DNA of 64,000 bases from an uncultured Spirochaetota bacterium (GTDB lineage: Bacteria; Spirochaetota; Spirochaetia; SZUA-6; Fen-1364), in contig CAWGAA010000002.1 of the NCBI GenBank assembly GCA_963820525.1, forward strand, positions 224,001 through 288,000, written 5' to 3'. The notes beneath the pieces are model-generated. The model ran no database searches and had not been told where the DNA came from. It saw only the letters and a list, made by a program, of their open reading frames with translations. The position numbers were made by a program, and so were the translations under genes. Positions 18,902 to 37,004 of this stretch are shown one piece after another. Within the stretch, counting starts at the first letter, position 1; each line of letters opens with the position of its first letter.

Positions 18902-18924
18902 GACCGAGTGAGTCCCTTCCTGAA

Positions 18925-18948
18925 AGCGGGGGCCTCGCGGCCCCCGCT
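18925..18948 (-). terminator. Stem-loop between phnD and phnC
   Basis: AGCGGGGGCC-tcgc-GGCCCCCGCT perfect 10-bp stem. Confidence 0.55.
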
Positions 18949-18973
18949 CAATCCATTGCCAAGCGGCCGTCCG

Positions 18974-21868: not shown

Positions 21869-22190
21869 ACTTTCCTCCTCTTGCGTCGAACGGTACCATG
21901 GACGACGAACAGAGGCAAGCGATGGAACGGTCGATTGAGGCATTCTTCCCCGCGTGGAACGCGTTTTGGGGCAAAGTTGGGACACGCGATGCCTTCGGAA
22001 GATCGCTCTTCATTCTCGACTGGATTGTCTCGAATCAGCCCTATTCTCTTACAGTCGCACGAGAGTGTCCCAATGCATGCAATTACAATGATTATATAGG
22101 AATACATGAACGCACTTTCCCGGAAGCGTCATTCTGCTAAGCGATCACTGATTAGCATGGAGCGACGGCAGTATAAGACTATTGAAAGCA

Positions 22191-22206
22191 TGGCATGCTT
22201 TTTGCA
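22191..22206 (+). promoter_or_regulatory. sigma54 (-24/-12) promoter of sugar ABC operon 1
   Basis: TGGCAT-GCTTT-TTGCA matches TGGCAC-N5-TTGC(A/T) with correct spacing. Confidence 0.8.
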
Positions 22207-22347: not shown

Positions 22348-23385
22348 ATGAAAAGGTTCCTCGTCTGTCTTCTTGCCCTTCTTGTCCTGGCGGCCTTCAG
22401 CGTTTACGCGGGTGGCGCCAAGGAAGCGGGACCGGCTGCGGGAAAACATCCGATCAAGAACAACACGATCACCATAGCCTGGATACCAAAAGCGTTGAAC
22501 AACCCGGTCTTCGAATTGGGCCGCGTGGGCGCCCTTAAAAAGGCTGAGGAGTTGACCGCCAAAGGTCCCTACAAGGTGAACATCTTGTACGTCGCCTCGG
22601 TGGCATCGGACATTGCGGAGCAGGCGCGGGTTGTCGAGGATGTCATCGCAAAAGGGGTTGACGCCATCGGCATCTCGTGCAACGAACCGACGGGCTGTGT
22701 AGACCCCATCCAGAAAGCGGTCAAAGCGGGAGTCGAGGTCATGACGTGGGATTCAGATTCGCCGAAAAGCGGGCGTTTCACCTACCTGGGTGTCGACAAC
22801 TATGAGGGCGGGAAGGCCGCTGCAGACCTGCTCGTGAAAGCCATGGGGACCAGTGGAGATGTCGCCCTGCTCACCGGCGTGCCGGGAGCGTTCAACCTGG
22901 AGGAGCGCATCCGCGGGTTCAAAGACGGCGTCAAGAACTACCCGAACATCAAGATCGTAAAGACCGTGGCCTGCAACGACGACATCAACCAGGGGGTGCA
23001 GGTCGTGGAGGAGACCATGCAGTCGAACCCCGACCTGAAGGGCTGGTTCTTCGTCGGTCTCTGGCCGCTGTTCGCCAACCGCGGCTCCATGAAGAGCTGG
23101 GAAGCGGCAGAGAAGGCAGGCACGTTGAAGACGATTTCTTTCGACACGCTTCCGGTGGAGCTGGACTTCGTGAAGGATGGATACGTCCAGGGCCTCGTTG
23201 GCCAGAAATACTGGGGCTGGGGATACGACACGGTCCAGATGATCTATGATAAAATCGTCAGCGGGAAGACCTTCGGTTCGTTTACCAACTCCGGCATGGA
23301 TCTCGTCACGCCGAAGAACGTTGCTGTCATGGCCGACATGTGGGCCACAATGGACTTCACCAAGACCCTGCCGCCGGCCTTTTAA
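22348..23385 (+). CDS. Sugar ABC substrate-binding protein (CUT2/RbsB-like)
   Basis: Signal peptide ..[39 protein letters not shown]. Confidence 0.9.
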
Positions 23386-23465: not shown

Positions 23466-24986
23466 ATGAGTGATGACAGGGCTTTCCTCTTGCAGATGCA
23501 GCAGATATCCAAATCCTTTCCCGGAGTCCAGGCGCTGGACGGCGTGGACCTGGAAGTCCGTGCCGGAGAGGTTCTTGCCCTGGTGGGCGAGAACGGCGCG
23601 GGCAAGTCCACCCTGATGAAGATCCTGAGCGGCGCTCATCGCAAGGACGCGGGGCGAGTCTTTCTGGAAGGAAGGGAGGTGGAGATCGAGAACCCGCACC
23701 ACGCGCTGCAGCTGGGTATCGCCATCATCTACCAGGAGTTCAACCTCACCCGCAACCAGACGGTGGCGGCGAATATCTACATCGCCCGCGAGCCGCGCGT
23801 GGCAGGGCTTGGCGGCGTGTTGGGCTTCGTCGACCGCTCCCGCATGGAAGCGGACGCCAGCCGGGTTCTCCAGCGCATCCGGTCGAAGATTCCCGTCGAC
23901 GTCAAGGTGCGGGATCTTTCCGTGGCCCAGCAGCAGATGGTGGAGATAGCCAAGGCCATCGCGGTGCAGGCGAAGATCCTGATCATGGACGAGCCGACCG
24001 CGGCCCTGGGCGAGAACGAAACCGAGGTGCTTTTCGAGACGGTGCACGGCCTGAAAGCCCAGGGGATCGCCATCATCTTCATCACCCATCGGCTGGAGGA
24101 GATGTTCCGCATCGCGGACCGCGTCGTCGTGCTGAGGGACGGGCAGCGCGTCGGAGAGCTTCCCATCGCGGAGGCGACGCCCGATCGGGTGGTGCAGATG
24201 ATGGTCGGGCGGAGCCTCCAGGAAATCTTTTACAAAGAGCCGGTGGACATCACGCAGCCTATCCTCGAAGTGCGCGGTCTCACCCGGCGCGGCGCCGTTC
24301 TGAACGTCAGCTTCACGCTGCGCCGCGGAGAGATCCTCGGCTTTGCGGGGCTGGTGGGAGCCGGGCGCACGGAGACGGCGCGGCTGCTGTTCGGAGCGGA
24401 CACCCGTGACGGCGGCGAGGTGCTGTTGGAGGGCAAACCTCTGCGGATCGACTCGCCCACCGCGGCCGTGAAGGCGGGGATCGGGCTGGTTCCGGAAGAC
24501 CGCGGCCTGCAGGGGTTGGTGCTCAAGTTGCCGGTCCAGGAGAACATCGTGCTGGCGACCCTGCCGCGGCACAGTACGGCAGGCTGGATGGACAGGTCCC
24601 GGATTGCGGAGACGGCCCATACCTTCGTGCAACGGCTCTCTATCAGGACGCCGCACCTGCGTCAGAAAACGATGCTCCTCTCCGGCGGCAACCAGCAGAA
24701 GGTGGTGCTCGCCAAGTGGCTGGCCTCCCAACCGAAGGTGCTGATTCTGGACGAGCCGACCCGCGGCATCGATGTGGGCGCGAAGGCGGAGGTGCATGCC
24801 CTCATGAGCCGGCTTGCGCGCTCCGGCATCGGCATTATAATGATCTCATCGGAGCTGCCTGAGATCATGGCAATGAGCGACAGGATCATCGTGATGCATG
24901 AAGGTCGCATTGCGGCCGTGCTCGGCCGTTCGGAAGCGACGCAGGAGCTGGTTATGGCGTACGCAAGCGGACAGCAGAGGGGGTAG
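23466..24986 (+). CDS. Sugar ABC ATP-binding protein (tandem NBD, RbsA/MglA-like)
   Basis: GENGAGKS, MDEPTAAL, GLVGAGRTE, LSGGNQQKVVLAKWL, DEPTRGIDVGAK. Confidence 0.95.
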   Translation: MSDDRAFLLQMQQISKSFPGVQALDGVDLEVRAGEVLALVGENGAGKSTLMKILSGAHRKDAGRVFLEGREVEIENPHHALQLGIAIIYQEFNLTRNQTVAANIYIAREPRVAGLGGVLGFVDRSRMEADASRVLQRIRSKIPVDVKVRDLSVAQQQMVEIAKAIAVQAKILIMDEPTAALGENETEVLFETVHGLKAQGIAIIFITHRLEEMFRIADRVVVLRDGQRVGELPIAEATPDRVVQMMVGRSLQEIFYKEPVDITQPILEVRGLTRRGAVLNVSFTLRRGEILGFAGLVGAGRTETARLLFGADTRDGGEVLLEGKPLRIDSPTAAVKAGIGLVPEDRGLQGLVLKLPVQENIVLATLPRHSTAGWMDRSRIAETAHTFVQRLSIRTPHLRQKTMLLSGGNQQKVVLAKWLASQPKVLILDEPTRGIDVGAKAEVHALMSRLARSGIGIIMISSELPEIMAMSDRIIVMHEGRIAAVLGRSEATQELVMAYASGQQRG

Positions 24987-24991
24987 CAACT

Positions 24992-25990
24992 ATGGCAGAA
25001 GACTCGTCGAAATCCTCCGCGCCGAGCGCGCGGCGGGGAGCCGCCCTCCGCGGGATCGTGCGCGCCCAGGAGTTCGGCGTGTCCCTCATCCTGGCCGCGA
25101 TGGTGCTCTTCCTGAGCGTCTTCACGAACACCTTCCTCACGAGCACGAACATCTTCAACATCCTTCGCGCTTTCTCCTGGATCGCCATCAGCGGCTTCGG
25201 CGAATGCATGGTAATCATCACCGGAGGGATAGACCTCTCCGTGGGATCGGTGATGGGCTTCGCCGGTCTGATCTCGGCGATGCTGCTCAGATTCTCCGGA
25301 AACATTCTTCTGGCGGTGGCGGGCGGCCTTGCCGCCGGCGTCGTGATCGGCCTGCTCAACGGATTGATGGTCACGAAAGCACGGCTGCCTCCCTTCATCG
25401 CGACCCTGGGCATGCTGCTCATGGCGCGCGGCCTGTGCTACGGCCTCTCGGGCGGTTGGCCCGTGCAGGATCTTTCCCAGGGCTTTCGAAACCTGGGGCA
25501 GTTCGACATCCCCTTCCTGGGCGCGGGCATTCCCCTCCCCCTGGTGTTCATGATCGTCATCGGCGCGATCATGATGGTGTTCCTGACGCGCACTGTCTGG
25601 GGATACCGCATCTACGCGGTCGGAGGCAATGAAGTGGCCTCGGGGCTTTCCGGCATCAGCACGGACCGCGTGAAGATCATGGTCTACACCCTCGGCGCGT
25701 TCCTCACCGCGATCGGCGGTATCCTGATGACCGCCCGCTTGGGGGTGGCGTCCCCGATGGCTGCATACGGGTACGAGCTCGATGTGATTGCGGCGGCGGT
25801 GGTCGGGGGCACGAGCCTCGCCGGCGGGGAAGGAACGATCCTTGGGGTTCTCATCGGTGCGGCTATCATGCAGGTGCTCCGCACGGGACTCATACTGACC
25901 GGCGTGTCCGCCTACTGGCTGCAGGCGGTCCAGGGTCTGGTGATCGTCGTGGCGATCATGCTCGACCAGCTGCAGAAACGCCGCAGATAA
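24992..25990 (+). CDS. Sugar ABC permease (RbsC-like)
   Basis: GGIDLSVGS, PPFIATLG, YELDVIAAAVVGGTSLAGG. Confidence 0.93.
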   Translation: MAEDSSKSSAPSARRGAALRGIVRAQEFGVSLILAAMVLFLSVFTNTFLTSTNIFNILRAFSWIAISGFGECMVIITGGIDLSVGSVMGFAGLISAMLLRFSGNILLAVAGGLAAGVVIGLLNGLMVTKARLPPFIATLGMLLMARGLCYGLSGGWPVQDLSQGFRNLGQFDIPFLGAGIPLPLVFMIVIGAIMMVFLTRTVWGYRIYAVGGNEVASGLSGISTDRVKIMVYTLGAFLTAIGGILMTARLGVASPMAAYGYELDVIAAAVVGGTSLAGGEGTILGVLIGAAIMQVLRTGLILTGVSAYWLQAVQGLVIVVAIMLDQLQKRRR

Positions 25991-26004: not shown

Positions 26005-27816
26005 TTACGCCAGCGGAAACGTGACGCAGAAACTCGTCTTCTCACCCGGAATGCTCTTGAAGGATATCTCGCCCTCATGCTCCTTGACGATCTGCTGGCA
26101 TATGGACAAGCCGAGCCCGGCATTCCTTTTGTTGATCTTCGTGCTGAAGAAGGGCTGAAAAACCCTGTCGTGGATATTGCCGGGGATGCCGTAGCCGTTG
26201 TCGCTGATGATGACCTTGACGCAGCCCTCTTTCTTCTCCGAGTGGATCATCACCTCGAGGTTTCCCTCGTCGAGCATGGCCTCGATGCCGTTATTGATCA
26301 GATTGATGAAGAGCTGCGTAAGCCGGTTCTCGTCGCCGACAATCTCCGCATCGTAGTCGTCCGTCTTTTTTTCGAGCCGGATGTTCTTCTGAGAAAGGCT
26401 GTGGTTGAGAAGCAGGAGGACTTCCTCCAGCAGGACGGCAATGCGGATCCTTTTTTTCGGCAGTTCCCCGATCCGTGAAAAGGAGAGAAGGCTATTGACG
26501 ATCTTCACGATGCGATCCACTTCCTTCTCGATGTCGGTGAGCTTTTCCCTGACCGCCGGGCCCACGGGCTCCCCTTCAATGAGTTCGAAGGTATTCTTGA
26601 TGATGTACAGGGGATTGTTGATCTCGTGAGCGACTCCAACCGCCACTTCGGCTACCGACGCCATTTTCTCGCTCCGGGCAAGGTAGCTCTTGAGATAGTG
26701 CTCCACAGATACGTCCTGAATGAGGATGGTGTTGCCGAAGAAACCGGAATCGGCGTCCCGAAAGCGGACGATGCTGATTTTCACTAGCGCTTTCTGCGCG
26801 AGGGAGACGTTGTCCCAGCTTGCTTCCTCCCCGGCGTCGAGTTTCCGCTTGATCTCTCCAAGGATCTCGCGATTGATTCCATCCAGGATCTTTGAAAGGG
26901 GCATCTTGATGATGGAGTCATGCCCGAGATTCAATATTCTCAGGGCGGCGAAGTTGACCAGCTGCACCCTGGCCTTCAGATCGAGGATGATGACCCCGAT
27001 CGGCAGGTGCTGGATGACGCTTTCGATGTACCGGCGGATGACCAGAAACCTCTTGGCGTCCTCACTGAGCCTTTTCTTGTTGACGGCAAAGGAATAGGTG
27101 AGCTCGAAGAGGCGGTACTTGTCCAGGTCCTTGACCACTTCGGTGCCTCTGCGATAGCCGTCTTTCAATATGGTGACTCGATCGGCGAGATGCAGCACCT
27201 CGTCCATGTTGTGCGTGATATAGATGACGCTTCCGCCGCTCTGCTTCTTCTCCCTGATGATTCTGTAGATGGGCGCCATCTCGTCCGGGGTGAGCTTGTT
27301 GGACACCTCGTCGAAGATGATGAGCCGCGGATCCATCATCCATATCCTGGCCAGTTCCACCATGTACTGCTGGGAGAGGGAGAGCTTGTACATCGGAATG
27401 CCGGGATCGAAACAGAGGTTCAATTTCTCGAAAAGGGCGAGGGTGCTGCGCATCATTTTCGCGTAGTCAATGAAGCCGAGGCGGCTGGCGATCATTTGCC
27501 CGGCGAAGATGTTCTTGACCGCGTCAAGGTTCGGGATGATGTTCAGATCCTGATACACCATCCCGATTCCATGCAGGGTCGACGTTCGCGTGGTGAAATT
27601 CGCAATACCCTTGCCGTCGAATATGATCTCTCCATCCTTTTTCCGCACGGCTCCGCTCAAGACCTTGGCCAGGGAAGATTTCCCCGCCCTGTGCTCGCCG
27701 ACGAGCGCGTGAACTTCGCCGCGATAGAGATCGAAATCGATACCTCTCAAGGCTTGGATGTCGTTGTACGTGACATGAATGTTTCGCATCTGAAGCAGGA
27801 GCTTCTCCGACTTCAT
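26005..27816 (-). CDS. Hybrid histidine kinase 1: sugar-ABC-type NBD + PAS + HisKA + HATPase_c
   Basis: GEHRAGKS, GIGMVYQD, IIFDE, YITH (NBD); LPIGVIILD (PAS); AHEINNPL; NLINNGIEA, DNGYGI, FQPFFSTK, GLGLSI. Confidence 0.9.
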   Translation of the reverse strand: MKSEKLLLQMRNIHVTYNDIQALRGIDFDLYRGEVHALVGEHRAGKSSLAKVLSGAVRKKDGEIIFDGKGIANFTTRTSTLHGIGMVYQDLNIIPNLDAVKNIFAGQMIASRLGFIDYAKMMRSTLALFEKLNLCFDPGIPMYKLSLSQQYMVELARIWMMDPRLIIFDEVSNKLTPDEMAPIYRIIREKKQSGGSVIYITHNMDEVLHLADRVTILKDGYRRGTEVVKDLDKYRLFELTYSFAVNKKRLSEDAKRFLVIRRYIESVIQHLPIGVIILDLKARVQLVNFAALRILNLGHDSIIKMPLSKILDGINREILGEIKRKLDAGEEASWDNVSLAQKALVKISIVRFRDADSGFFGNTILIQDVSVEHYLKSYLARSEKMASVAEVAVGVAHEINNPLYIIKNTFELIEGEPVGPAVREKLTDIEKEVDRIVKIVNSLLSFSRIGELPKKRIRIAVLLEEVLLLLNHSLSQKNIRLEKKTDDYDAEIVGDENRLTQLFINLINNGIEAMLDEGNLEVMIHSEKKEGCVKVIISDNGYGIPGNIHDRVFQPFFSTKINKRNAGLGLSICQQIVKEHEGEISFKSIPGEKTSFCVTFPLA

Positions 27817-27829
27817 ACGAGACGACGCC

Positions 27830-29146
27830 TCACGAGCCGATATTGTATCGCTTCATCTTGCGATAGAGGGTTTTTCGGTCTATTTTCAACATCACGGCAG
27901 CTTTCCGCTTGACGCCCCCGCTTCTCCTCAGCGCCTCAACAATGATGTCCCGTGCGCTCGTCTGGTAGCGCACATCCAGGGGCGGTTCGCCGTCCGTTTC
28001 CTTCAAGGCCTGATACTGCTCAGGGATCACCGGGACATCGATCACCTCATCCTCGCAGAATATCACCGCCCGCTCGATGAGGTTCCTGAGCTCTCGCACG
28101 TTCCCCGGCCAATCATGGCCGAGGAGCATGGAGCGCACCTGCTCCGAAATGCCCCGGATCCGTTTCCCGTACCTCTCGTTGAACTCGCGAAGGAAATGGT
28201 CCGCCAATAGCAGAATGTCCTGCCTGCGCTCCCGCAGCGGCGGCAGATGGAGGGTCACCACGGAAAGCCGGTAGTAGAGATCCTCGCGGAATGCGCCCCC
28301 GTCAATCAGGTGCTGCAGGTTCTTGTTCGTTGCCGTCACGATCCGGCAGCCGGCCTTCAAGGTGAGCGAGCCGCCCACGCGCGTGAAACTTCCATCCTGA
28401 AGCACGCGCAGCATCTTTGCCTGGGTCTTTTGGCTCATGTCGGCGATCTCGTCAAGGAAGATCGTACCATCACCCGCGCGCTCGAACATGCCCTGTTTCT
28501 GGAATTTCGCGTCGGTGAAGGCTCCCCTTTCGTGGCCGAACATCTCGCTTTCAAGCAGATCTTCGGGAATCGCCGCGCAGTTTATCTTGATGAAGGGGCG
28601 CTCATCCCGCGCGCTGTGTTTTTGGATCAGGTCGGCGACGAGCTCTTTGCCGGTGCCGCTTTCCCCGGTGACGATGACGGCGGCGTTCGTCGGCGCCGCT
28701 TTCTTCGCCAGCTCGATCACCTTGAGCATCGCCGGGTCCTGGGTCACGATTCGGGCGCCGGCGGCCACGGGCTTTTGCAGGCCCTTCGTGCCGGCCAGCC
28801 GGTCGATCTCCGAGATCAGCTTCCTGTTGTCGATCGGCTTCGCGTAGAAGTTGAGGGCCCCGTATTTCATCGCCGTGACGACGGAGTCCACCGTAGCGTG
28901 CCCGGAGATCATGATCACGGGAATGTCCGCGTTTTCAGCCCTCACGGACCTGAGCAGATCGATACCGTCCTGTCCCGGCATCTTCACGTCGATGATCAGG
29001 AGGTCCATCGGGGCGGATCGCAAGGCAGGCAGGACTTGGAGCGTTTCCGTACAGAAGCGAGCCTCATACCCATGCCTTTTGAGAATGTCACGCAGGGTGA
29101 GGCATATTTTGGGTTCATCATCGACGATAAGCACCGTAAAGCTCAT
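27830..29146 (-). CDS. sigma54-dependent response regulator (NtrC family) 1
   Basis: REC (IVDDE, IIDVKMPG); [27 protein letters not shown]; Fis-type HTH IDRKTLYRKM. Confidence 0.95.
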   Translation of the reverse strand: MSFTVLIVDDEPKICLTLRDILKRHGYEARFCTETLQVLPALRSAPMDLLIIDVKMPGQDGIDLLRSVRAENADIPVIMISGHATVDSVVTAMKYGALNFYAKPIDNRKLISEIDRLAGTKGLQKPVAAGARIVTQDPAMLKVIELAKKAAPTNAAVIVTGESGTGKELVADLIQKHSARDERPFIKINCAAIPEDLLESEMFGHERGAFTDAKFQKQGMFERAGDGTIFLDEIADMSQKTQAKMLRVLQDGSFTRVGGSLTLKAGCRIVTATNKNLQHLIDGGAFREDLYYRLSVVTLHLPPLRERRQDILLLADHFLREFNERYGKRIRGISEQVRSMLLGHDWPGNVRELRNLIERAVIFCEDEVIDVPVIPEQYQALKETDGEPPLDVRYQTSARDIIVEALRRSGGVKRKAAVMLKIDRKTLYRKMKRYNIGS

Positions 29147-29211
29147 TGGCAGCGGCCATTATAGATCACAGCGCGCCAGGCCGCAAGTATCGGCAGCGAA
29201 TGAACGCCGCC

Positions 29212-29538
29212 CTATACTTTCTTGAGATCCCTCGTGAGGAAGTAGCTGAGGATCGTCCGGATGACGATGATCGCCCCGAGGATGCCGAGGCCCTCCCAGG
29301 TCGGGGTCACGACCGTCTTCACGATGTCGCTCGCTATGAAGAACTCGAGCGCGAGAACGAGGTAGCTCCCGAGCTTCAACCTGATCCTCTCGTTCGCCGC
29401 GGAACGGTCTTCAGAACCCGTGATCTCCTTCCTCAGGAAATCGACGAAAGAGAGCGCGATTCCCCAAACCGTGACAAGCGCGCCGATGGCGTTCAAACCG
29501 AGCCCGATGATGTTTATGACGATATGGAAGGTATCCAT
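29212..29538 (-). CDS. DUF1622-like small membrane protein
   Basis: RLKLGSYLVLALEFFIASDIVKT, LGAIIVIRTILSYFL. Confidence 0.8.
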   Translation of the reverse strand: MDTFHIVINIIGLGLNAIGALVTVWGIALSFVDFLRKEITGSEDRSAANERIRLKLGSYLVLALEFFIASDIVKTVVTPTWEGLGILGAIIVIRTILSYFLTRDLKKV

Positions 29539-29724
29539 GGACCAGCGTCCTTCATCTCGATTCTACCCCGCCAACCGGAATCGTCAAGGCCGTTTCCCGA
29601 TGCATTGTTCGGATGCATGCCTATCGGCACTTTTGCCGATTGCGCGGTGAAGCTGCGCTCGGGTACAATTGCTTCTGTCGTGGGACAATGTCCGGGAGTT
29701 GTGTTCCAAAGCGTCGAGGGGCAC

Positions 29725-31044
29725 ATGAAACAGAAGGTTCTGATCGTCGACGATGAGCTCCATATGTGCAGGTCCCTCTGCGAGCTCCTGGAATCGGAGG
29801 ACCTGGAAGCCGTTTACTCCACGGATCCCCTCGAGGCCCTCCAGATCATCTCCGAAGGCGCCGTCGACCTTCTGTTCCTCGACATCAAGATGCAGAAGCT
29901 GAGCGGCATAGACCTGCTGAAGCATGTCAAAGCCAAGGATCCAGGCATTCCCATAATCATGATTACCGGCTATCCCTCGGTGGACAACATCGTCCAATCG
30001 ATGAAGCTCGGAGCGAGCAACGTTTTCGCCAAGCCCCCGAACCTAGACGCGCTCATCAAGGACGCGAAGGTTCTGTTGGAGAGCAGGCTGCGCAGGCAGG
30101 GCAAAGGACGATCGAGCCCACAGAAGATCATCACCCAGGACCACAGGATGAAAAAGATCCTGGGAGCCATGGAGAAGTTCGCCGCCACGGATGCGCCGGT
30201 CCTGATCACGGGGGAAAGCGGGACGGGCAAGGAGCTTTTGGCCAGCGCGCTTCACGACTTGAGCCCCCGGAGGGACAACCCGTTCATCAAGGTGAATTGC
30301 GCGGCCCTGCCGGAGACTCTCCTGGAGAGCGAGCTCTTCGGCCATGAGAAAGGCGCATTCACGGACGCGTTTCATGTCAGGAAGGGCAAGTTCGAGCTGG
30401 CCAACTGCGGCACGATCTTCTTCGACGAGATCGGCGACATGTCGCTGAACAGCCAGTCCAAGATCCTGCGGGTGCTCCAGGAGCACGAGTTCGAGCGTGT
30501 CGGGGGCACGGAGGTCCTCCAGACGGACTTCCGCCTGATCGCGGCCACCAACAAGAATTTATCCGATCTCATCACTGCGGGCACGTTCCGGGACGACCTC
30601 TACTACCGCATTTCCGTGATCAGCGTCGATATGCCGCCGCTTCGGGAGCGGAAGGAAGACATCCTGCTTCTCAGCGGCTATTTCATCAGCGCCTTCAACG
30701 AGGTCTACGCCAAGCGGATCGTGGATCTGGCCGCCGATGTGAAGCAGCTCTTTTTGCGCCATCACTGGCCCGGCAACGTGCGGGAACTGCGAAACTGCAT
30801 CGAGCGGGCGGTCATCTTCTGCGAGTTGGACACCATCTCCCTGGAGGACCTCCCTTCCCAGTACACGGGCTTTGCCGGCGGTCTGCCTGCCACGGATTAC
30901 CAGCAGGCCTACGACAACCTGGACAGGGAGATCATCATGGACGCGCTCATCAGGAGCAAGGGCAAGAAGGCGAAAGCGGCGGAGCTCCTCAAGATCGACC
31001 GGCGCACTCTCTACAACCATATGAAAAGGCTCGGCCTGCGATGA
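29725..31044 (+). CDS. sigma54-dependent response regulator (NtrC family) 2
   Basis: ATG 29725 after GAGGGG; REC (IVDDE, FLDIKM); [32 protein letters not shown]. Confidence 0.95.
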
Positions 31045-32855
31045 GCGCGATTTCCTCGCCCCGGCTGGAGATGCGAGGGATCACGGTCCACTACGGCAGC
31101 GTGCTCGCCCTGGAGGACGTGGATTTCGACCTGTACCCCGCGGAGGTTCACGCCCTGGCCGGAGAGCACCGGGCGGGGAAATCGACTCTCGTGAAGCTTT
31201 TAAGCGGCGCGGTGAAGAAGGACGGCGGGCTGATCGTCTTGAACGGCTCGCCCGTCGACGGGTTCACTCCCGGCACCTCGATGCGGCACCGCATAGGGAT
31301 GGTCTACCAGGAGATGAACGTCGTTCCCACCCTGAACGCCATTGAAAACATCTTTGCCGGACAGACGCCCGTGAAGTCGTTCGGGAGGATCAACAGGGAG
31401 TGGATGATCCAGGAGGCAAAACGGCTGTTCGCCCGGCTCAAGGTGGACATCAACCTGGAAGCTCCGCTGTTCAAGCTCTCCATGGCGGAACAGCTCATGG
31501 TGGAGCTTGCACGGCTTCTCTCCATAGATCCCGAGATCCTGATTTTCGACGAGATCTCCAGCAAGCTGACTCCCGTGGAGATGGAGCGCGTGTACTCCAT
31601 CCTCTCCGAGGTGAAGGAGAAGAGCAAGAGCGTCATCTACATCTCGCACGATATGGACGAGATCTTCAGGGTGGCGGATCGGGTGACGATCCTGAAGGAC
31701 GGGCGGCGACGGGGGACGGAGGAGATCAAGGACCTCGACCGGATGAAGCTGATCAAGATGACCTATTCCTTCGTGCTCTCGCGGGAGGAGCTGGAACAGG
31801 ACAACAAGGAGCTGTTCTTCAGAAAGAGGTACAACGAGAACATCATCAAGAACCTGCCGGTCGGGGTGATCATCCTCGACAACCAGAACAGGCTGTACCT
31901 GATCAACAATCCCGCCCGCAAGATCCTGGACCTGGAGGAAAACATCGCCGCCGACAGCTACGTGACCGCCCTTTTCCTGAGGCACGAGCTTCAGGAGTAC
32001 GACGATATCGTCCGCTGCATCGAACGGCATGAGGAGGGCACCTGGGACGAAGTGAAGTACGGGGCGGACAAGACGCTGAAGATAAGCACCTTTCCCTTCA
32101 AGGACGAGGAGGACAAGTTCCTGGGAACCATCGTGTTGATGGAGGATATTTCCAAGAGCCTGCTGTTCAACGAGTACCTCCGGCGCGCGGAGAAGATCGC
32201 CTCGACGGCGGAGCTGGCCGCCGGGGTGGCCCACGAGATCAACAATCCGCTGGGCATCGTCCTCAACTACACCACCATCATCAGGCGGAAAGCCCTTGCG
32301 AACGCGGACGGCATGGAGAAGGTGCGGATCATTGAGAACGAGCTTCTGCGCATCAAGGAGATCATCAGCAGCCTGCTCTCCTTCTCGCGCATCGAGAGCT
32401 CGGAGATGGCCACCGTGGACATCGTGGAGATCCTCCACGAGGTGGTCGTGCTGATCAACCACAAGATCCGCGAAAAGGAGATCGAGCTGTGCTTGAGAAA
32501 CCGCTGCGGGAGGCCGATGGTGCACGGGAACGCCAACAGGCTGAAGCAGGTCTTTATCAACCTCTTGATGAACGGCATCGAAGCCGTGGCCAGACGGGGA
32601 CGGATCGCAATTGCGATCCGCACGGACGGACATCCTCCATCCGTGGAGATCCGCTTCAGGGACAACGGCTGCGGCATTGCGGATTCCATCAAGGACCGGA
32701 TCTTCGATCCCTTCTTCAGCACGAAGCTCGACAACAAGAACACCGGATTGGGGCTGTCCATCTCCCAGCACATTATTGAGACCCACAACGGCGTCATCGA
32801 AGTGAGCACCGAGGGCGATACCGAGTTCACCGTTCGCCTCCCGTTGCTGAAATAA
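31041..32855 (+). CDS. Hybrid histidine kinase 2: sugar-ABC-type NBD + PAS + HisKA + HATPase_c
   Basis: GEHRAGKS, IGMVYQE, LIFDE, YISH; LPVGVIILD; AHEINNPL; NLLMNGIEA, DNGCGI, FDPFFSTK, GLGLSI. Confidence 0.9.
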   Translation: MSAISSPRLEMRGITVHYGSVLALEDVDFDLYPAEVHALAGEHRAGKSTLVKLLSGAVKKDGGLIVLNGSPVDGFTPGTSMRHRIGMVYQEMNVVPTLNAIENIFAGQTPVKSFGRINREWMIQEAKRLFARLKVDINLEAPLFKLSMAEQLMVELARLLSIDPEILIFDEISSKLTPVEMERVYSILSEVKEKSKSVIYISHDMDEIFRVADRVTILKDGRRRGTEEIKDLDRMKLIKMTYSFVLSREELEQDNKELFFRKRYNENIIKNLPVGVIILDNQNRLYLINNPARKILDLEENIAADSYVTALFLRHELQEYDDIVRCIERHEEGTWDEVKYGADKTLKISTFPFKDEEDKFLGTIVLMEDISKSLLFNEYLRRAEKIASTAELAAGVAHEINNPLGIVLNYTTIIRRKALANADGMEKVRIIENELLRIKEIISSLLSFSRIESSEMATVDIVEILHEVVVLINHKIREKEIELCLRNRCGRPMVHGNANRLKQVFINLLMNGIEAVARRGRIAIAIRTDGHPPSVEIRFRDNGCGIADSIKDRIFDPFFSTKLDNKNTGLGLSISQHIIETHNGVIEVSTEGDTEFTVRLPLLK

Positions 32856-33046
32856 CGCCGGGACTTTTTCTCCACAAGATTCAGGCGAGATTCGGGAAAA
32901 ATATTTCCCTATGCCTGCACAATCCCGCCGAATCCAGAGACCGCAGCCCGCGTTTGGCGCGCGCTTGATCCACTAACTATTGCCGGCGCAAGGCAATAGA
33001 GAGAGTCTCCCGTGTCCTGGATCATCCGGCCGCCGAGCGGAGAGTC

Positions 33047-33062
33047 TGGCACGGAGCTTGCT
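33047..33062 (+). promoter_or_regulatory. sigma54 (-24/-12) promoter of sugar ABC operon 2
   Basis: TGGCAC-GGAGC-TTGCT, exact consensus match. Confidence 0.88.
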
Positions 33063-33102: not shown

Positions 33103-34158
33103 ATGAAGAAAAGGATTTTTTTGATCGTCGTCGTCTGCCTGATCATGTGCGTCGGGACGACGTCCTTTGCCGCGCCCATAAAGATCGGCCTCTCTTTCGC
33201 CGAGTTCGAGGTCGAAAGGTGGGCCAGGGAAAAGGACAGGATGACGGAGCTCGCCACGAAGGCGGGGGCCAAGGAAGTCGTCTACCAGGTGGCCAACAAT
33301 GACGCGAATCTCCAGAACTCCCAGATCGAAAACATGGTCGCACAGGGCGTGAACGTGATCATCATCGTGGCCGTGGACGGCGAGGCCTGCGCCACGGCGG
33401 TCGAGCAGGCTGCCAAGGCCGGCGTGGCCTGCATCGCCTATGACCGCCTGATCAAGACGAACAAGCTCGCGGCCTACATCACCTTCGACAACGTCGAGGT
33501 GGGCAGGCAGGAGGCGCTCGGCGTTCTGGACGTGGTCAAGAAGGGACGGTTCGCGCTGCTGGGCGGAAGCCCGACGGACAACAATGCCCATCTGGTTCGC
33601 CGCGGACAGATGCTGGTTCTCCAGCCCCTGATCGACAAGAAGACCATTCAGATCGTCGGAGACCAGTTCGTCGAAGGCTGGAGCCAGGAGAAGGCGCTGG
33701 CGATCATGGAGAACATGCTGACCGCCAACCAGAACAAGATCGATGCCGTCGTCGCCTCCAATGACAGCACGGGGCTCGGCGCCGTGGAGGCGCTATCCGC
33801 CCAGGGCTTGGCCGGAAAAGTGCCCGTATCCGGGCAGGACGCGACGGCCGCCGCATGCAAGGCGATAGCGGAGGGAAAGTTCACCGTGACCGTGTTCAAG
33901 GACATCAACCTCCTCTCGCCAATGGCCGTGGATATCGCCATGAAGCTCGCCAAAGGCCAGTCCACGGGATTGAAAACCCGCAGCCTCGCCGATCTCACCG
34001 GAGACAACGCCATGACCGGAAACATCCCGTGCGCTTTCCTGCCGGTGGTCCGGGTGACCAAGGCCAACCTCTACAACGTGGTCATCAAGAGCAAGTTCCA
34101 GCCCTACGACGAGGTGTACAAGGACGTTCCCGTGGGCAAGCGCCCAGCCAGGCCGTAA
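33103..34158 (+). CDS. xylF: XylF/ChvE-like sugar ABC substrate-binding protein
   Basis: RBS AGGAGG; ERWAREKD, IAYDRLI, FDNVEVG, GGSPTDNNA, VSGQDA; actual substrate not certain. Confidence 0.8.
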   Translation: MKKRIFLIVVVCLIMCVGTTSFAAPIKIGLSFAEFEVERWAREKDRMTELATKAGAKEVVYQVANNDANLQNSQIENMVAQGVNVIIIVAVDGEACATAVEQAAKAGVACIAYDRLIKTNKLAAYITFDNVEVGRQEALGVLDVVKKGRFALLGGSPTDNNAHLVRRGQMLVLQPLIDKKTIQIVGDQFVEGWSQEKALAIMENMLTANQNKIDAVVASNDSTGLGAVEALSAQGLAGKVPVSGQDATAAACKAIAEGKFTVTVFKDINLLSPMAVDIAMKLAKGQSTGLKTRSLADLTGDNAMTGNIPCAFLPVVRVTKANLYNVVIKSKFQPYDEVYKDVPVGKRPARP

Positions 34159-34266: not shown

Positions 34267-35811
34267 ATGAGCGAGTACATACTTCAGTTCGACCAGGTCA
34301 CAAAGGATTTTCCCGGCGTCCGCGCGCTTTCCAGCGTCACCTTCAATGTGAAGAGCGGTGAGGTCCACGGCCTGTGCGGCGAGAACGGGGCGGGGAAATC
34401 GACCCTCGTGAAGATTCTCGCGGGCGTCTATCCCCACGGCTCATACCAGGGACGGGTTCTCTTCAACGACACGGAGCTCGCCTTCGGCGGCTCGTCGATC
34501 CGCCAGGCGATCGAGAGGGGCATCGCCATCGTGTATCAGGAGTTCGCGCTCGTGCCCCAGCTCACCGTCGGGGAGAACATCCACCTGGGGAGAGAGCCGG
34601 AGACGATGGGCGTCATCAACTGGCACAAGCTGTACGCGGAGACCAAGCAGATCCTCGACTCCTACCACCTTCGCATCCCGTTCGCGGAGAAGGTCGTGAA
34701 CCTGGGCGTCGGCCAGCGGCAGATGGTGGAGATCGCCAAGGCACTGAGCGAGAACGCCAGGCTCCTGATCCTCGACGAGCCCACCTCCGCGCTGACAGAG
34801 CAGGAAGTGGAGGCTCTGCACGAGATCCTCCGGAAGCTCCGCGCCCGGGGGGTGACGTGCATCTACATCTCCCATAAATTGGAGGAGTTTTTCAGGATCG
34901 CCGACACGCTCACGGTCCTCAGGGATGGCGAGGTCATCGACACCCTCCCCATCCTGGAGACGAACACGGAAGACGTGATCAGGATGATGGTGGGCCGCGA
35001 GATGAAGGAGCGATTCCCGAAGAGCCGGCACGAGATCGGCCCGGTGGTCCTGGAAGTGAAGGACCTGTCTTCTGCGGCCGCTGGGGGCACCAACAAGAGA
35101 TCGCTCGTGGGAATCTCTTTCGACCTGCGGCAGGGGGAGATCCTCGGAGTGGCCGGGCTCATGGGCTCGGGGAGGACCGAGCTGTTGACCGCGATCTTCG
35201 GAGCGGCCGAAGGGCGCACACAGGGCGAGATCAGGATCGATGGCAAGCCGGCGCGGATCGACAGCGCCAAGGACGCCTTGAATCACGGCGTCAGCTACGT
35301 GCCGGAGGATCGAAAGGGGCAGGGCCTCGTCTTGAACGAATCGATCCTCCGGAACATGACGCTGCCAAACCTGGACCAGTTCGCATCCTTCATGATCATC
35401 AACAAGCCGAAGGAGCTCCAGGCGTGCCAGCTCTTCTTCGAGTCGCTCAAGATCAAGGCCACCTCCGTCATGGCGCCGGTGGAATCGCTCTCCGGCGGCA
35501 ACCAGCAAAAAGTGGTGATTGCCAAATGGCTCATGTCGCGCCCCCGGTTCCTTTTCCTCGATGAGCCCACCCGCGGCATCGATGTCGGGGCGAAGTACGA
35601 AATCTACAAGCTCATCAGCCAGCTGGCCTCGGAAGAGGTCGCCATCGTGATGGTCAGCTCGGAGCTGCCCGAGCTCCTGGGGATGTGCGACCGCATCCTC
35701 GTGATGCACGACGGCAGGGCAATGGGGATCCTGCCGGTGGAAGAGGCGGACCAGGAGAAGATCATGACGTTGGCCACGGGGCTGACGAAAAACTCAAAGG
35801 GGCTAGGATGA
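34267..35811 (+). CDS. xylG: XylG-like sugar ABC ATP-binding protein (tandem NBD)
   Basis: CGENGAGKS, GVYPHGSYQG, LDEPTSAL, LSGGNQQKVV, DVGAKYEIY. Confidence 0.85.
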   Translation: MSEYILQFDQVTKDFPGVRALSSVTFNVKSGEVHGLCGENGAGKSTLVKILAGVYPHGSYQGRVLFNDTELAFGGSSIRQAIERGIAIVYQEFALVPQLTVGENIHLGREPETMGVINWHKLYAETKQILDSYHLRIPFAEKVVNLGVGQRQMVEIAKALSENARLLILDEPTSALTEQEVEALHEILRKLRARGVTCIYISHKLEEFFRIADTLTVLRDGEVIDTLPILETNTEDVIRMMVGREMKERFPKSRHEIGPVVLEVKDLSSAAAGGTNKRSLVGISFDLRQGEILGVAGLMGSGRTELLTAIFGAAEGRTQGEIRIDGKPARIDSAKDALNHGVSYVPEDRKGQGLVLNESILRNMTLPNLDQFASFMIINKPKELQACQLFFESLKIKATSVMAPVESLSGGNQQKVVIAKWLMSRPRFLFLDEPTRGIDVGAKYEIYKLISQLASEEVAIVMVSSELPELLGMCDRILVMHDGRAMGILPVEEADQEKIMTLATGLTKNSKGLG

Positions 35812-37004
35812 AGAACCTGAAGCTGATCGACCAGATACGGTTGAACCTCAAGACGTATACGATGATTTTCGCCCTGCTTGCGATCTGGCTCCTCTTCGGG
35901 ACCCTGACTAATTGGATCTTCTTCTCCCCCCGAAACCTCTCCAACCTGTTCCGCCAGATGACCATCATCTCGTTCCTGGCCATCGGGATGGTCATCGTCA
36001 TCGTCACCGGCAATATCGACCTGTCGGTGGGCTCGGTCACCGGGTTCGTCGGCGTGATCGCCGCGTACCTGCAGGCCATCGTGTTCGCGAAGATCCTGCC
36101 CGGCCTGATGCCCCACGCCTCCCTCCTGGAGGTCGCCATCGTCTCCACCGCGCTCACGGTCGTTCTCTGCCTTGTGGTGGGCAGCGCGATCGGGATGCTG
36201 CAGGGCGCCGTGGTCGCCTTCATGAACGTGCCTGCGTTCATCGTAACCCTCGGCGGGCTCCTGATCTTTCGCGGCGGCATCCTGGGCATCACCCAGGGAA
36301 AGACGATCGTGCCGATCGAAGAGCCGTTCAAGCAGATAGCGCAGGGCTATCTCTCCGGCCCGGTCGGTCTTATCCTGGCCGGCGTCGTCATCGTCATCAT
36401 CTTCGCCTTCACCTTCTGGAACCGACGGCAGAGGAGAAACTACGGTTTTGTCCTGCAGCATCTGTACCTCGACCTGCTGAAGGCCGGGCTCTTTTCCCTG
36501 GCGGTTCTGCTCTACGTCGTCATCATGAACATGTACCAGGGGGTGCAGAACCCCGTGCTGCTGATGGCTGTTGCGGCGGTCTTCTTCAGCTACGTCACCA
36601 ACAATACGCGCTTCGGCAGGTACGCGTATGCCATCGGCGGCAACAAGGAGGCGACGAAGCTCTCCGGCATCAACATCCAGCTCAATGTCTTCAAGGTGTT
36701 CATCCTCATGGGTTTCCTCTGCGCCGTGGCGGGGATCGTCCTCACCGCCCGGGTCGCCGCCGGAACGATTTCCGGCGGCCAGAACTACGAGCTGTCCGCC
36801 ATAGCGGCCTGCGTCATCGGCGGCACGAGCCTGATGGGCGGGGAGGGCACCATATTCGGCGCCATCGTCGGCTCGCTGATCATGGCCAGCCTGGAGAACG
36901 GCATGAGCGTGATGAACATGGACATCTTCTGGCAGTACATCATCCGTGGGCTCGTTCTCATCTTCGCAGTTTACGTGGACGTCGCCTCCAAGAAGAAGCG
37001 ATAG
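35808..37004 (+). CDS. xylH: XylH-like sugar ABC permease
   Basis: SPRNLSNLFRQ, IDLSVGS, VPAFIVTLGG, YELSAIAACVIGGTS. Confidence 0.85.
   Translation: MKNLKLIDQIRLNLKTYTMIFALLAIWLLFGTLTNWIFFSPRNLSNLFRQMTIISFLAIGMVIVIVTGNIDLSVGSVTGFVGVIAAYLQAIVFAKILPGLMPHASLLEVAIVSTALTVVLCLVVGSAIGMLQGAVVAFMNVPAFIVTLGGLLIFRGGILGITQGKTIVPIEEPFKQIAQGYLSGPVGLILAGVVIVIIFAFTFWNRRQRRNYGFVLQHLYLDLLKAGLFSLAVLLYVVIMNMYQGVQNPVLLMAVAAVFFSYVTNNTRFGRYAYAIGGNKEATKLSGINIQLNVFKVFILMGFLCAVAGIVLTARVAAGTISGGQNYELSAIAACVIGGTSLMGGEGTIFGAIVGSLIMASLENGMSVMNMDIFWQYIIRGLVLIFAVYVDVASKKKR

What the first reader, a model, noticed from the sequence alone, without database searches (positions are those of the whole stretch)
26005..32855. 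Histidine kinases with a sugar-ABC ATPase domain as sensor (NBD-PAS-HK fusion), two paralogues
Seen: both kinases (26005-27816 minus; 31041-32855 plus) begin with ~240 aa that align by eye to the first NBD of the neighbouring RbsA/XylG-type ATPases. PAS, HisKA (HEINNPL) and a complete HATPase follow in one continuous frame, with no TM segment. Two diverged copies on opposite strands share the architecture, so a frameshift or misassembly is unlikely. Established: CUT2 transporters use a homodimeric permease plus a tandem-NBD ATPase; histidine kinases are homodimers; transporter-kinase co-sensing exists with separate proteins (BceAB-BceS, PstSCAB/PhoU-PhoR). Inference: the kinase dimer presents two NBDs that could dock on the permease coupling helices in place of the ATPase, turning binding protein plus permease into a receptor. 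I know of no characterised kinase with this architecture, but could not search for one.
Basis: partly seen in the sequence, partly recalled or inferred. Interest (0 to 1): 0.93.

Follow-up and report, generated by a model that had tools for sequence, protein, structure and literature searches.

The report
Histidine kinases with ABC-ATPase sensor domain
Two soluble sensor kinases carry, in place of a normal sensor, one copy of the ATP-binding motor domain of a sugar ABC importer; they belong to a conserved, uncharacterised family that always sits beside such importers and may read the transporter directly.

Summary
Both ORFs (26005-27816 minus; 31041-32855 plus) are uninterrupted NBD-linker-PAS-HisKA-HATPase_c proteins without TM segments. 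Independent metagenome contigs bridge both fusion junctions. The N-terminal 240 aa is a true ABC NBD, and a tree shows one origin from the first NBD of CUT2 sugar-importer ATPases. The architecture is a conserved family, mostly in Spirochaetota. Of 41 loci in other genomes, 40 have a sigma54 NtrC-type regulator directly upstream. 37 have a BPD_transp_2-type ABC importer operon within 10 kb; the four misses are cut by contig ends. Sigma54 -24/-12 motifs precede both importer operons in the window and 19 elsewhere. ATP-binding residues are universal, but the catalytic switch His is lost in 16 of 42 members. Every complete operon keeps its own ATPase. Closely related kinase/regulator pairs sit beside importers with unrelated binding proteins, so substrate specificity does not appear to lie in the kinase. 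The NBD-permease fold gave only weak support (0.53 against best control 0.16). Eight full-text searches found no description of this architecture. Verdict: real, a new variant of transporter-coupled two-component sensing, worth experiments.

The parts
22191..22206 (+). sigma54 -24/-12 promoter-like site TGGCATGCTTTTTGCA, about 140 nt upstream of SBP1
   Evidence: 1 mismatch to TGGCAC-N5-TTGCW. It is one of the two best matches in the 64 kb window. The total of 14 matches at up to 2 mismatches is not above the 23 expected by chance, so only its position argues for it.
22348..23385 (+). SBP1, periplasmic sugar-binding protein of importer 1
   Evidence: Pfam Peripla_BP_4 2.3e-60. Only weak RhaS/RbsB-type matches in NCBIfam, so the substrate is unknown.
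23466..24986 (+). ATPase1, tandem-NBD CUT2 ATPase
   Evidence: Two ABC_tran stretches. Matches XylG, RbsA and AraG over the full length, E about 1e-164. NBD1 motifs are GENGAGKST, DEPT and H. NBD2 has GxxGxGRTE, LSGGNQQK and H->S. The start codon was chosen by eye.
24992..25990 (+). Permease1 (BPD_transp_2, RbsC-like); the only permease gene of operon 1
   Evidence: Pfam 7.1e-44. RbsC 232 bits, below the cut-off of 398.
26005..27816 (-). HK1, NBD-PAS-histidine kinase. NBD 27097-27798, linker helix 27004-27096, PAS 26710-27003, DHp 26485-26709, CA 26014-26454
   Evidence: Domain limits were transferred from the HK2 model.
27830..29146 (-). RR1, NtrC-type sigma54 activator (REC-AAA+-HTH_8), 13 nt upstream of HK1
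   Evidence: Pfam Response_reg, Sigma54_activat 2.8e-66 and HTH_8. AtoC/NtrC-like.
29725..31044 (+). RR2, NtrC-type sigma54 activator. Its stop overlaps the HK2 start (ATGA)
   Evidence: Pfam. The ATG start at 29725 was read. NCBIfam.
31041..32855 (+). HK2, NBD-PAS-histidine kinase. NBD 31062-31763, linker helix 31764-31856, PAS 31857-32150, DHp 32151-32378, CA 32409-32846
   Evidence: AF2 model: mean pLDDT 77.8, NBD about 90.
32977..32999 (.). Perfect palindrome CTATTGCC-N7-GGCAATAG between HK2 and the sigma54 site. It could be the activator's binding site or a hairpin ending the HK2 transcript
   Evidence: Function not tested.
33047..33062 (+). sigma54 -24/-12 promoter-like site TGGCACGGAGCTTGCT, about 40 nt upstream of SBP2
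   Evidence: the only perfect match in the window.
33103..34158 (+). SBP2, XylF-like xylose-type binding protein
   Evidence: Peripla_BP_4. xylF 3.4e-101, 338.8 bits, just under the cut-off of 389.55.
34267..35811 (+). ATPase2, tandem-NBD, XylG-like
   Evidence: 681 bits against a cut-off of 699 for the xylose ATPase.
35808..37004 (+). Permease2 (BPD_transp_2, GguB/XylH-like, 398 aa)
   Evidence: ORF. GguB 2.2e-101.

Best explanation
Shown by the calls:
- Each kinase is a soluble, presumably dimeric HisKA kinase. Its input domain is one ATP-binding cassette descended from the first NBD of a CUT2 sugar-importer ATPase.
- A conserved helical linker and a PAS domain join that NBD to the DHp/CA core.
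- Each kinase is paired with an NtrC-type sigma54 activator.
- The neighbouring importer operon (binding protein, tandem ATPase, permease) has a sigma54 promoter-like site.

Inferred:
- The pair switches that operon on.
- The two NBDs of the kinase dimer bind ATP and dock on the coupling helices of the cognate permease dimer, at the site the transport ATPase uses.
- Sugar-loaded binding protein, or the transport cycle itself, changes the permease. This changes how far the ATP-bound NBD pair closes or how long it stays docked.
- The linker helix and PAS pass this on to the DHp helices and set autophosphorylation.

Substrate specificity would then come from the binding protein and permease, not from the kinase. 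The sign is open: the kinase could be activated by a loaded transporter, or silenced by an idle one and released during transport.
For: Domain identity:
- Pfam and NCBIfam.
- Foldseek places the N-half on ABC NBDs (LptB 6mbn, TM 0.87, rmsd 2.5 A) and the C-half on PAS-kinases (4gcz, 3a0r). No solved chain in the list covers both halves.

Single origin:
- 41 kinase NBDs form one clade (UFboot/SH-aLRT 100/96) on the NBD1 side. NBD2 is a separate clade at 100/100 (quick tree).

Selection on the NBD:
- In 42 genome-derived members, Walker A Lys is kept in 42/42, Walker B Asp in 42/42, Q-loop Gln in 41/42 and Walker B Glu in 40/42. The switch His is kept in only 26/42. ATP binding is therefore required and fast hydrolysis is not.
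- The NBD is the best-conserved part between the two paralogues.
- The D-loop region (S-x-K-L-T-P) and the linker (L-T-Y-S-F...) are nearly invariant.

Linkage:
- RR directly upstream in 28/29 loci and 12/12 loci.
- CUT2 importer genes within 10 kb in 24/29 loci, plus one Liv-type importer with the same permease family, and in 12/12 loci of an even sample of the phylum.
- The four misses are at contig ends.

Regulon:
- Sigma54 motifs lie upstream of both window operons and in the right place and orientation in 12 + 7 other loci.
- rpoN is present in the genome.

Specificity not in the kinase:
- Kinase identity follows RR identity (Spearman 0.86) but not SBP (0.21), ATPase (0.06) or permease (-0.05).
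- L028 and L032 share 62% (kinase) and 61% (RR) but only 38% (SBP), 36% (ATPase) and 33% (permease).
- PAS identity to HK2 is 21-31% in five other xylose-type loci, but 46% in the locus with an amino-acid-type importer.

Fold of HK1 NBD (1-245) with two permease1 chains: weak support.
- ipSAE 0.53, 0.53 and 0.51; best of 3 controls 0.16.
- The runs agree in at least 73% of contacts, and the partner's pLDDT is at least 78.
- The mark was reached by 116 of 157 solved complexes and 2 of 215 mismatched pairs. At 0.60 or under, only 18 of those 157 reached it, and so did both mismatches that passed.
- My own alignments were used and the job is unlike the calibration.
- No permease of this family matched a solved structure by sequence.
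Against: No experiment bears on binding.
- All 35 importer operons seen whole keep their own ATPase. The kinase is not needed as a motor and would compete with a probably more abundant partner.
- No covariation was seen between the kinase NBD and the permease (Spearman -0.06; 1457 of 2000 permutations as high) or the ATPase (0.08; 528 of 2000). The test is weak: ATPase and permease, known partners, correlate at only 0.35.
- The weak pass may only reflect likeness to real NBDs. By the tool's own text, close cousins of a true partner also pass.
- A kinase homodimer would pair two NBD1-type cassettes. Each composite ATP site would then face a degenerate signature (LS-x-A-E-Q) instead of the LSGGNQQK that NBD2 supplies in the transporter.
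- The genome has at least ten other CUT2 ATPase genes and the permease coupling motif is highly conserved. How cross-talk would be avoided is unexplained.
- A sensor made partly of the products of a tightly closed sigma54 operon has a start-up problem, unless the free kinase is active.
Confidence: 0.45

Rival explanations
1. Autonomous cytoplasmic switch. The NBD never meets the transporter. It binds ATP and dimerises like a soluble ABC protein, gating the kinase by adenylate level or simply serving as a dimerisation clamp. The sugar or a metabolite is sensed inside the cell by the PAS domain or by the NBD itself. The link to importers exists only because the pair regulates them.
For: The kinase is soluble with no TM segment. 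Every operon has its own ATPase. There is no NBD-permease covariation. PAS is the most variable part, 31% between the paralogues, as a ligand pocket might be. The ATP-binding residues are universal.
Against: PAS similarity does not follow binding-protein type, and near-identical kinase modules serve importers with unrelated binding proteins. This is hard to reconcile with a ligand-specific PAS. It also does not explain why the input domain is always an NBD1 of exactly the importer class it regulates, kept as one clade, nor why the Q-loop and following helical-subdomain residues stay conserved. The weak pass points the other way.
Confidence: 0.27
2. The NBD targets the transport ATPase, not the permease, or works as a brake on transport. 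In the first case it pairs with an NBD of the importer's ATPase, for example offering its intact Walker A site to the canonical signature of NBD2, and so senses ATPase turnover. In the second case docking of the kinase blocks the permease, so the protein regulates transport activity as well as transcription.
For: The kinase NBD has NBD1-type motifs: competent Walker A, Walker B and Q-loop with a degenerate signature. These are complementary to NBD2, which has a perfect LSGGNQQK but a degenerate Walker A and H-loop. Three loci have single-NBD ATPases that must dimerise in trans (L017, L032 and L104).
Against: In 32 of the 35 operons seen whole the nearest ATPase is a covalent tandem whose NBD1 already occupies that place (L017, L032 and L104 have single-NBD ATPases; L013 has separate LivG/LivF-type ones). 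There is no kinase NBD-ATPase covariation (0.08).
Confidence: 0.12
3. Artefact or decaying fusion: a frameshift, misassembly or gene remnant with no function for the NBD.
For: None found. One relative (L103) lacks the first 50 or so residues because of a stop between the RR and the kinase.
Against: Independent contigs bridge both junctions. Two diverged paralogues exist. 119 of 120 database clusters and 41 genomic loci show the same architecture, with invariant motifs.
Confidence: 0.01

Closest known systems
BceAB-BceS type transporter-kinase co-sensing (Bacillus subtilis). Papers seen only as search listings: PMC3023708, PMC9169098, 10.1101/2020.02.28.969956. The mechanism is recalled.
   Same: A two-component kinase without a ligand-binding sensor of its own relies on an ABC transporter encoded beside it. 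The regulon is that transporter.
   Different: BceS is a membrane kinase with two TM helices that contacts the permease in the membrane, as a separate protein. Here the kinase is soluble and carries a copy of the transporter's motor domain. The transporter is an importer with a binding protein, and the regulator is sigma54-dependent.
CbrA / CrbS transceptors (SLC5 transporter domain-STAC-histidine kinase). Start of the abstracts of PMC13022988, PMC7096432 and PMC5715377 seen in listings.
   Same: Transport machinery and a histidine kinase are fused in one polypeptide, linking uptake and signalling.
   Different: There the whole membrane transporter is fused. Here only the soluble ATP-binding cassette is fused, and the membrane part would be borrowed non-covalently. 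The transporter superfamily also differs.
XylFII-LytS/YesN xylose sensing and other binding-protein-dependent kinases (LuxPQ, TorTS, HptAS, ChvE-VirA). Passages of review PMC8050422 read.
   Same: A Peripla_BP_4 binding protein supplies sugar specificity to a kinase that controls xylFGH-type importer genes.
   Different: Those kinases are membrane proteins with an extracytoplasmic domain that binds the binding protein directly. Here there is no extracytoplasmic part, so any signal must cross the membrane through the permease. The words 'ATPase' and 'nucleotide-binding' do not occur in that review.
MalK (maltose importer ATPase) with its C-terminal regulatory domain, which binds MalT and EIIAGlc; also PstB/PhoU-PhoR. 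Recalled, no call.
   Same: An importer NBD carries a C-terminal extension below the NBD dimer that couples transporter state to gene regulation. An idle transporter silences the regulator.
   Different: In MalK the extension is a docking platform for separate regulators, and MalK still powers transport. Here the extension is the kinase itself, and a separate full ATPase powers transport.
KdpD N-terminal P-loop domain. Recalled, no call.
   Same: A histidine kinase with a cytoplasmic N-terminal nucleotide-binding domain that regulates a transporter operon.
   Different: The KdpD domain is not an ABC cassette, and KdpD is membrane-anchored.

Membership tests
ABC transporter nucleotide-binding domain (Pfam ABC_tran) | Profile score above the curated cut-off | tested here: met
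   80.1 and 79.9 bits against a cut-off of 25. The fold matches solved NBDs, with TM up to 0.87.
ABC transporter nucleotide-binding domain (Pfam ABC_tran) | Walker A GxxxxGK[ST], Q-loop Gln, Walker B hhhhDE, H-loop His | tested here: met
   Both window copies have GEHRAGKS, Q, FDE and H. In the family: Lys 42/42, Gln 41/42, Asp 42/42, Glu 40/42, but His only 26/42.
ABC transporter nucleotide-binding domain (Pfam ABC_tran) | Canonical signature LSGGQ | tested here: not met
   The signatures are LSLSQQ and LSMAEQ. They are degenerate in the same way as NBD1 of the CUT2 ATPases (LSVAQQ, LGVGQR). NBD2 keeps LSGGNQQK in 32/32.
CUT2 sugar-importer ATPase (RbsA/XylG/AraG type) | Two NBDs in tandem in one chain; full-length equivalog score | tested here: not met
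   Only profile positions 1 to about 240 of about 500 are matched. Scores of 173-198 bits compare with cut-offs of 689-850. A PAS-kinase follows in place of NBD2.
CUT2 sugar-importer ATPase (RbsA/XylG/AraG type) | Descent from that family's NBD1 | tested here: met
   The kinase NBDs form one clade (100/96) on the NBD1 side of the tree, separate from NBD2 (100/100).
HisKA-class sensor histidine kinase (NtrB/AtoS-like) | H-box His, N, G1, F and G2 boxes; HisKA and HATPase_c above cut-off | tested here: met
   Invariant H398, N507, N511, D541, G543, G545, F558, G569 and G571 in 31 sequences. H-box His in 41/41.
HisKA-class sensor histidine kinase (NtrB/AtoS-like) | AtoS equivalog (full length, membrane-anchored) | tested here: not met
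   219 and 242 bits against a cut-off of 646. Only profile positions 260-608 match. No TM segment. The database name 'AtoS' is therefore a misnomer.
Two-component system with sigma54 (NtrC-type) regulator | Cognate REC-AAA+-HTH regulator adjacent; sigma54 promoter at the target; rpoN in the genome | tested here: met
   The RR is adjacent in 40 of 41 other loci.
Transporter-dependent (co-sensing) kinases, Bce type | Intramembrane-sensing kinase with two TM helices and a short loop | tested here: not met
   No TM segment.
Transporter-dependent (co-sensing) kinases, Bce type | Signalling requires the transporter | not testable with these tools
   Only genomic linkage and a weak fold result are available.
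Transceptors (CbrA/CrbS) | Membrane transporter domain covalently fused to the kinase | tested here: not met
   Only the soluble cassette is fused.
Binding-protein-dependent kinases (LytS/XylFII, LuxQ/LuxP) | Extracytoplasmic ligand-binding domain that receives the binding protein | tested here: not met
   No signal peptide, TM segment or extracytoplasmic region. The whole chain is accounted for by cytoplasmic domains.

The most novel reading that the evidence does not exclude
The kinase is an alternative, signalling-only 'motor subunit' of binding-protein-dependent importers. A kinase dimer, a permease dimer and the binding protein would form a dedicated receptor. In it the ATP-dependent closure of an ABC cassette pair, without the need for hydrolysis, is converted into histidine autophosphorylation. 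This would be a transmembrane signalling route in which the kinase never enters the membrane. It would also be modular, because the same kinase/regulator cassette has been combined with many different CUT2 importers and at least one Liv-type importer.
Probability: 0.35. Interest if true: 0.9.

Novelty: new variant of a known kind. Interest (0 to 1): 0.76.

Why it matters
How soluble or sensor-less kinases obtain information from outside the cell is a recurring question. The known answers are separate transporter partners (Bce, Pst/PhoU, DctA/DcuS) or whole transporters fused to kinases (CbrA).

A kinase that carries only the ABC motor domain would be a third solution. It would give a direct handle on how conformational change in an ABC importer is read out, because the output is phosphorylation instead of transport.

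The family is compact (about 600 aa) and soluble. It occurs in complete genomes, and it is wired to a simple sigma54 promoter, so it can be rebuilt in a reporter strain. Because the module seems to work with importers of different specificity, it could also serve as a general adaptor for sugar biosensors.

If the docking idea is wrong, the family is still a conserved, unstudied use of an ABC cassette as a cytoplasmic ATP-dependent input domain.

Tried and rejected
- Literature: eight full-text searches gave no paper on an ABC-cassette-fused histidine kinase. One candidate title (AtcS of Treponema denticola, PMC12070737, passages read) concerns a membrane kinase without a sensor domain and is unrelated. 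Subscription journals and supplements were not covered.
- Expression: no RNA holder was listed for the stretch, so nothing can be said about transcription.
- Covariation of the kinase NBD with the permease or ATPase gave nothing. The test has little power, since ATPase and permease themselves correlate at only 0.35. Only 28 of 43 loci had all five genes detected. L094 was dropped as a 98% copy of L093.
- Other output domains on this NBD were looked for. Among the best 150 of 1.84 billion representatives, 22 hits reached the linker. 19 are NBD-HisKA-HATPase_c of 588-621 aa and 3 are short pieces. No other output was seen.
- Loci L042-L092 matched only the kinase half and were not examined. L074 was dropped because it has separate kinase-like and ATPase-like ORFs.
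- A 2:2 model (kinase dimer with permease dimer) exceeded the 1000-residue limit. One NBD with two permeases was folded instead.
- Kinase homodimer, kinase-ATPase and ATPase-permease comparison folds were not run (one job per session).
- Mapping conservation onto the coupling-helix groove was not possible without coordinates. Motif positions recalled for MalK were used only as a guide in my reasoning and are not claimed as results.

Full report
**1. What is there**

The region holds two divergent units.

Unit 1:
- SBP1 (22348-23385, +), tandem-NBD ATPase1 (23466-24986, +) and permease1 (24992-25990, +).
- These run towards RR1 (27830-29146, -) and HK1 (26005-27816, -), which are on the opposite strand.

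Unit 2, all on the plus strand:
- RR2 (29725-31044), HK2 (31041-32855, start overlapping the RR2 stop), SBP2 (33103-34158), ATPase2 (34267-35811) and permease2 (35808-37004).

Properties of the parts:
- Both RRs are REC-AAA+(Sigma54_activat)-HTH_8 proteins.
- Importer 2 is XylFGH-like. Its scores fall just under the equivalog cut-offs: xylF 338.8 bits against 389.55, and the ATPase 681 against 699. The substrate of importer 1 cannot be named.
- The two best matches to the sigma54 -24/-12 consensus in the whole window lie just upstream of SBP2 (perfect, 33047-33062) and SBP1 (one mismatch, 22191-22206). Across the window the motif count is not above chance, so position is the argument.
- rpoN is present in the genome.

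**2.

- HK1 and HK2 are single open frames with ABC_tran, HisKA and HATPase_c well above the Pfam cut-offs.
- NCBIfam matches the first 240 residues to the first half only of AraG, RbsA, YtfR and XylG. The remainder matches the C-terminal part of AtoS.
- The AF2 model of HK2 (mean pLDDT 77.8; NBD about 90) has these elements: NBD 9-241, a helix 248-270, a PAS sheet 275-369, one long helix 371-416 running into DHp, and a CA domain.
- Foldseek puts the two halves on ABC NBDs and on PAS-kinases respectively. No listed solved chain covers both.
- There is no hydrophobic segment of TM quality.
- Contigs from four public runs of four studies bridge both NBD/PAS junctions. The only indel listed is intergenic.

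**3. It is a family, not a curiosity**

- 119 of the 120 best clusters found with HK2 (50-99% identical, about 600 aa) carry the same three domains. The exception is a 400-aa fragment.
- 120 of 121 proteins have a Walker A. It is almost always G[EA]HRAGKS.
- In the 50%-identity representative library, 22 of the best 150 hits to residues 1-275 extend through the linker. 19 of those are NBD-HisKA-HATPase_c of 588-621 aa, and 3 are short pieces. No other output domain was seen.
- In one-genome-per-species contigs, 29 loci encode the N-terminal part as well. They are mostly Spirochaetota MAGs, plus one Gynuella MAG and 'Bacterium UASB270'.
- In an even sample of the window's phylum, 10 of 400 other genomes have a full-length match at E <= 1e-80, with identities of 31-51%.
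- The window's own genome has only these two copies, next to at least ten CUT2 ATPase genes.
- The Atlas lists the family's own cluster (62 members, Spirochaetota).

**4. Origin**

In a careful ML tree of 108 NBDs, the 41 kinase NBDs form one clade (100/96). It lies on the side of the first NBDs of CUT2 ATPases. The second NBDs form a separate clade (100/100) (quick tree). The bootstrap had not fully settled (correlation 0.984).

So one fusion of an NBD1 to a PAS-kinase gave rise to the family. The window's copies are not recent fusions with their neighbours, to whose first NBDs HK2's NBD is 35% identical.

**5. What selection keeps**

Column profiles of 149 kinase NBDs against 35 NBD1 and 32 NBD2, and a tally in 42 genome-derived members, show the following.

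Kept:
- Walker A Lys 42/42.
- Walker B Asp 42/42 and Glu 40/42.
- Q-loop Gln 41/42.
- A-loop aromatic 37/42.

Often lost:
- The switch His is present in only 26/42. Both window copies have it.

Family-specific features:
- The signature is degenerate, exactly as in NBD1. In the transporter it is NBD2 that supplies LSGGNQQK.
- His-Arg stands in the P-loop where ATPases have Asn-Gly (34/42 have the Arg). A divergent subgroup keeps Gly.
- Ile/Val-Ser replaces Pro-Thr after Walker B.
- The D-loop carries a Lys.
- The linker ...KLIKLTYSFVLSREEL... is nearly invariant.

The pattern fits a domain that must bind ATP and meet a partner across the NBD interface but need not turn over ATP quickly. The NBD is also the best-conserved part between HK1 and HK2 (52.5% against 31.2% for linker+PAS).

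**6. Neighbourhood**

With the window's proteins as probes (phmmer on all ORFs), the counts are:

| Feature | 29 contig loci | 12 phylum-sample loci |
|---|---|---|
| sigma54 RR directly upstream | 28 (the miss is at a contig edge) | 12 |
| CUT2 importer genes within the fetched flank | 24 | 12 |

- A 25th locus, L013, has a Liv-type importer instead: Peripla_BP_6, two BPD_transp_2 permeases and LivG/LivF-like ATPases. That is the same permease family.
- The four loci without an importer (L020, L022, L034, L035) are all cut by a contig end next to the pair.
- Of the 37 loci with importer genes, 35 show the importer's own ATPase. It is tandem in most and a single NBD of 262-287 aa in L017, L032 and L104. 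The other two (L021, L102) are cut after the permease.
- A strict sigma54 motif lies just upstream of the first importer gene, in the right orientation, in 12 + 7 loci. By my own rough arithmetic for equal base frequencies, about 0.06 such motifs are expected per 20 kb.

**7. Where is the specificity?**

- Over 28 loci with all five genes, kinase identity follows RR identity (Spearman 0.86). In one search, the permutation tests of kinase core against RR (0.81) and of NBD against RR (0.83) each had 0 of 2000 permutations as high.
- Kinase identity does not follow SBP (0.21), ATPase (0.06) or permease (-0.05).
- Pairs such as L028/L032 (kinase 62%, RR 61%, SBP 38%, ATPase 36%, permease 33%) or L104/L099 (54, 55, 19, 33, 28) show the kinase/regulator cassette combined with different importers.
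- PAS identity to HK2 is only 21-31% in five other loci with XylF-like binding proteins, but 46% in the Liv-type locus.
- This argues against a sugar-specific pocket in the kinase. It favours a generic read-out of the importer.
- The same data show no NBD-permease co-adaptation. However, the method barely detects the known ATPase-permease partnership (0.35), so it cannot decide.

**8. The docking test**

- No permease of this family matched a solved structure by sequence.
- One HK1 NBD (1-245, alignment A3) was folded with two permease1 chains (alignment A2). The result was weak support.
- ipSAE was 0.53, 0.53 and 0.51. The controls gave 0.16, 0.00 and 0.00.
- The runs agree in at least 73% of contacts, and the partner's pLDDT is at least 78.
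- The mark was reached by 116 of 157 solved complexes and 2 of 215 mismatches. At 0.60 or below, only 18 of the 157 reached it, and so did both passing mismatches.
- My own alignments were used and the job is unlike the calibration.
- Because the NBD is a cousin of the true partner, the pass shows retained likeness, not binding.

**9. Reading**

Shown:
- A conserved, soluble NBD-PAS-kinase family.
- Its pairing with a sigma54 activator.
- Its linkage to importer operons that carry sigma54 promoter-like sites.

Inferred with good support:
- The pair activates the neighbouring importer operon.

Inferred, about 0.45:
- The NBD pair of the kinase dimer docks on the permease and reports binding-protein or transport state through the linker and PAS to the DHp.
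- The geometry is natural. Importer NBDs with C-terminal dimerising extensions below the NBD dimer are known (MalK, MetN, ModC; recalled, no call).

Rivals:
- A transporter-independent, ATP-gated cytoplasmic switch with sensing by PAS (0.27).
- Pairing with the transport ATPase, or braking of transport (0.12).
- Artefact (0.01).

**10. Novelty**

Database names are automatic: 'AtoS', 'ATP-binding cassette domain-containing protein'. Eight full-text searches found no description. A review of binding-protein-dependent signalling lists only kinases with extracytoplasmic domains. I rate it a new variant of transporter-coupled two-component sensing.

Noticed in passing
window 20921-21985 (-): A 354-aa ORF joins collagen triple-helix repeats (residues 117-174) to a C-terminal T6SS Hcp domain (201-330). 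This is an unusual Hcp fusion.
   Followed up: no
window 29212-29538 (-): A 108-aa ORF lies in the 580-nt gap between the divergent RR1 and RR2 genes. By eye it is hydrophobic. It has no NCBIfam match, and Pfam was not run on it.
   Followed up: partly
L013:595-5920 (Bacterium UASB270): Here the RR/NBD-kinase pair sits beside a Liv-type (branched-chain amino-acid class) importer instead of a sugar importer. The importer has two permeases and two single ATPases. This kinase is among the closest to HK2 (NBD 62%, linker 75%).
   Followed up: partly
proteins P0253 (829 aa) and P0263 (812 aa): These are CUT2 tandem ATPases fused to a Peripla_BP_4 sugar-binding domain. In P0263 that domain lies between the two NBDs. 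They may be another way of giving an importer ATPase a cytoplasmic sensor.
   Followed up: no
Atlas clusters: Two Actinomycetota clusters (852 aa with 166 members; 826 aa with 64 members) are reported with ABC_tran + HisKA (+ GAF_2 or HATPase_c). The score of 0.84 makes this a lead only. NBD-kinase fusions may exist outside this family.
   Followed up: no
L103:9038-10872 (G281): This relative matches HK2 only from residue 51 on, because a stop separates it from the RR gene. It is either a broken gene or an assembly error in an 89%-complete genome.
   Followed up: no
L096-L098, L100, L101 (G048, G120, G148, G235): A divergent subgroup (31-33% identical to HK2) keeps the ordinary P-loop GEHGAGKS and a different linker (AYTQI). 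It has the same neighbourhood. G120 carries three family members.
   Followed up: partly
window 16596-19882 (-): A phosphonate-type ABC importer (Phosphonate-bd binding protein, ATPase, and a long BPD_transp_1 permease of 505 aa) lies upstream of the region.
   Followed up: no
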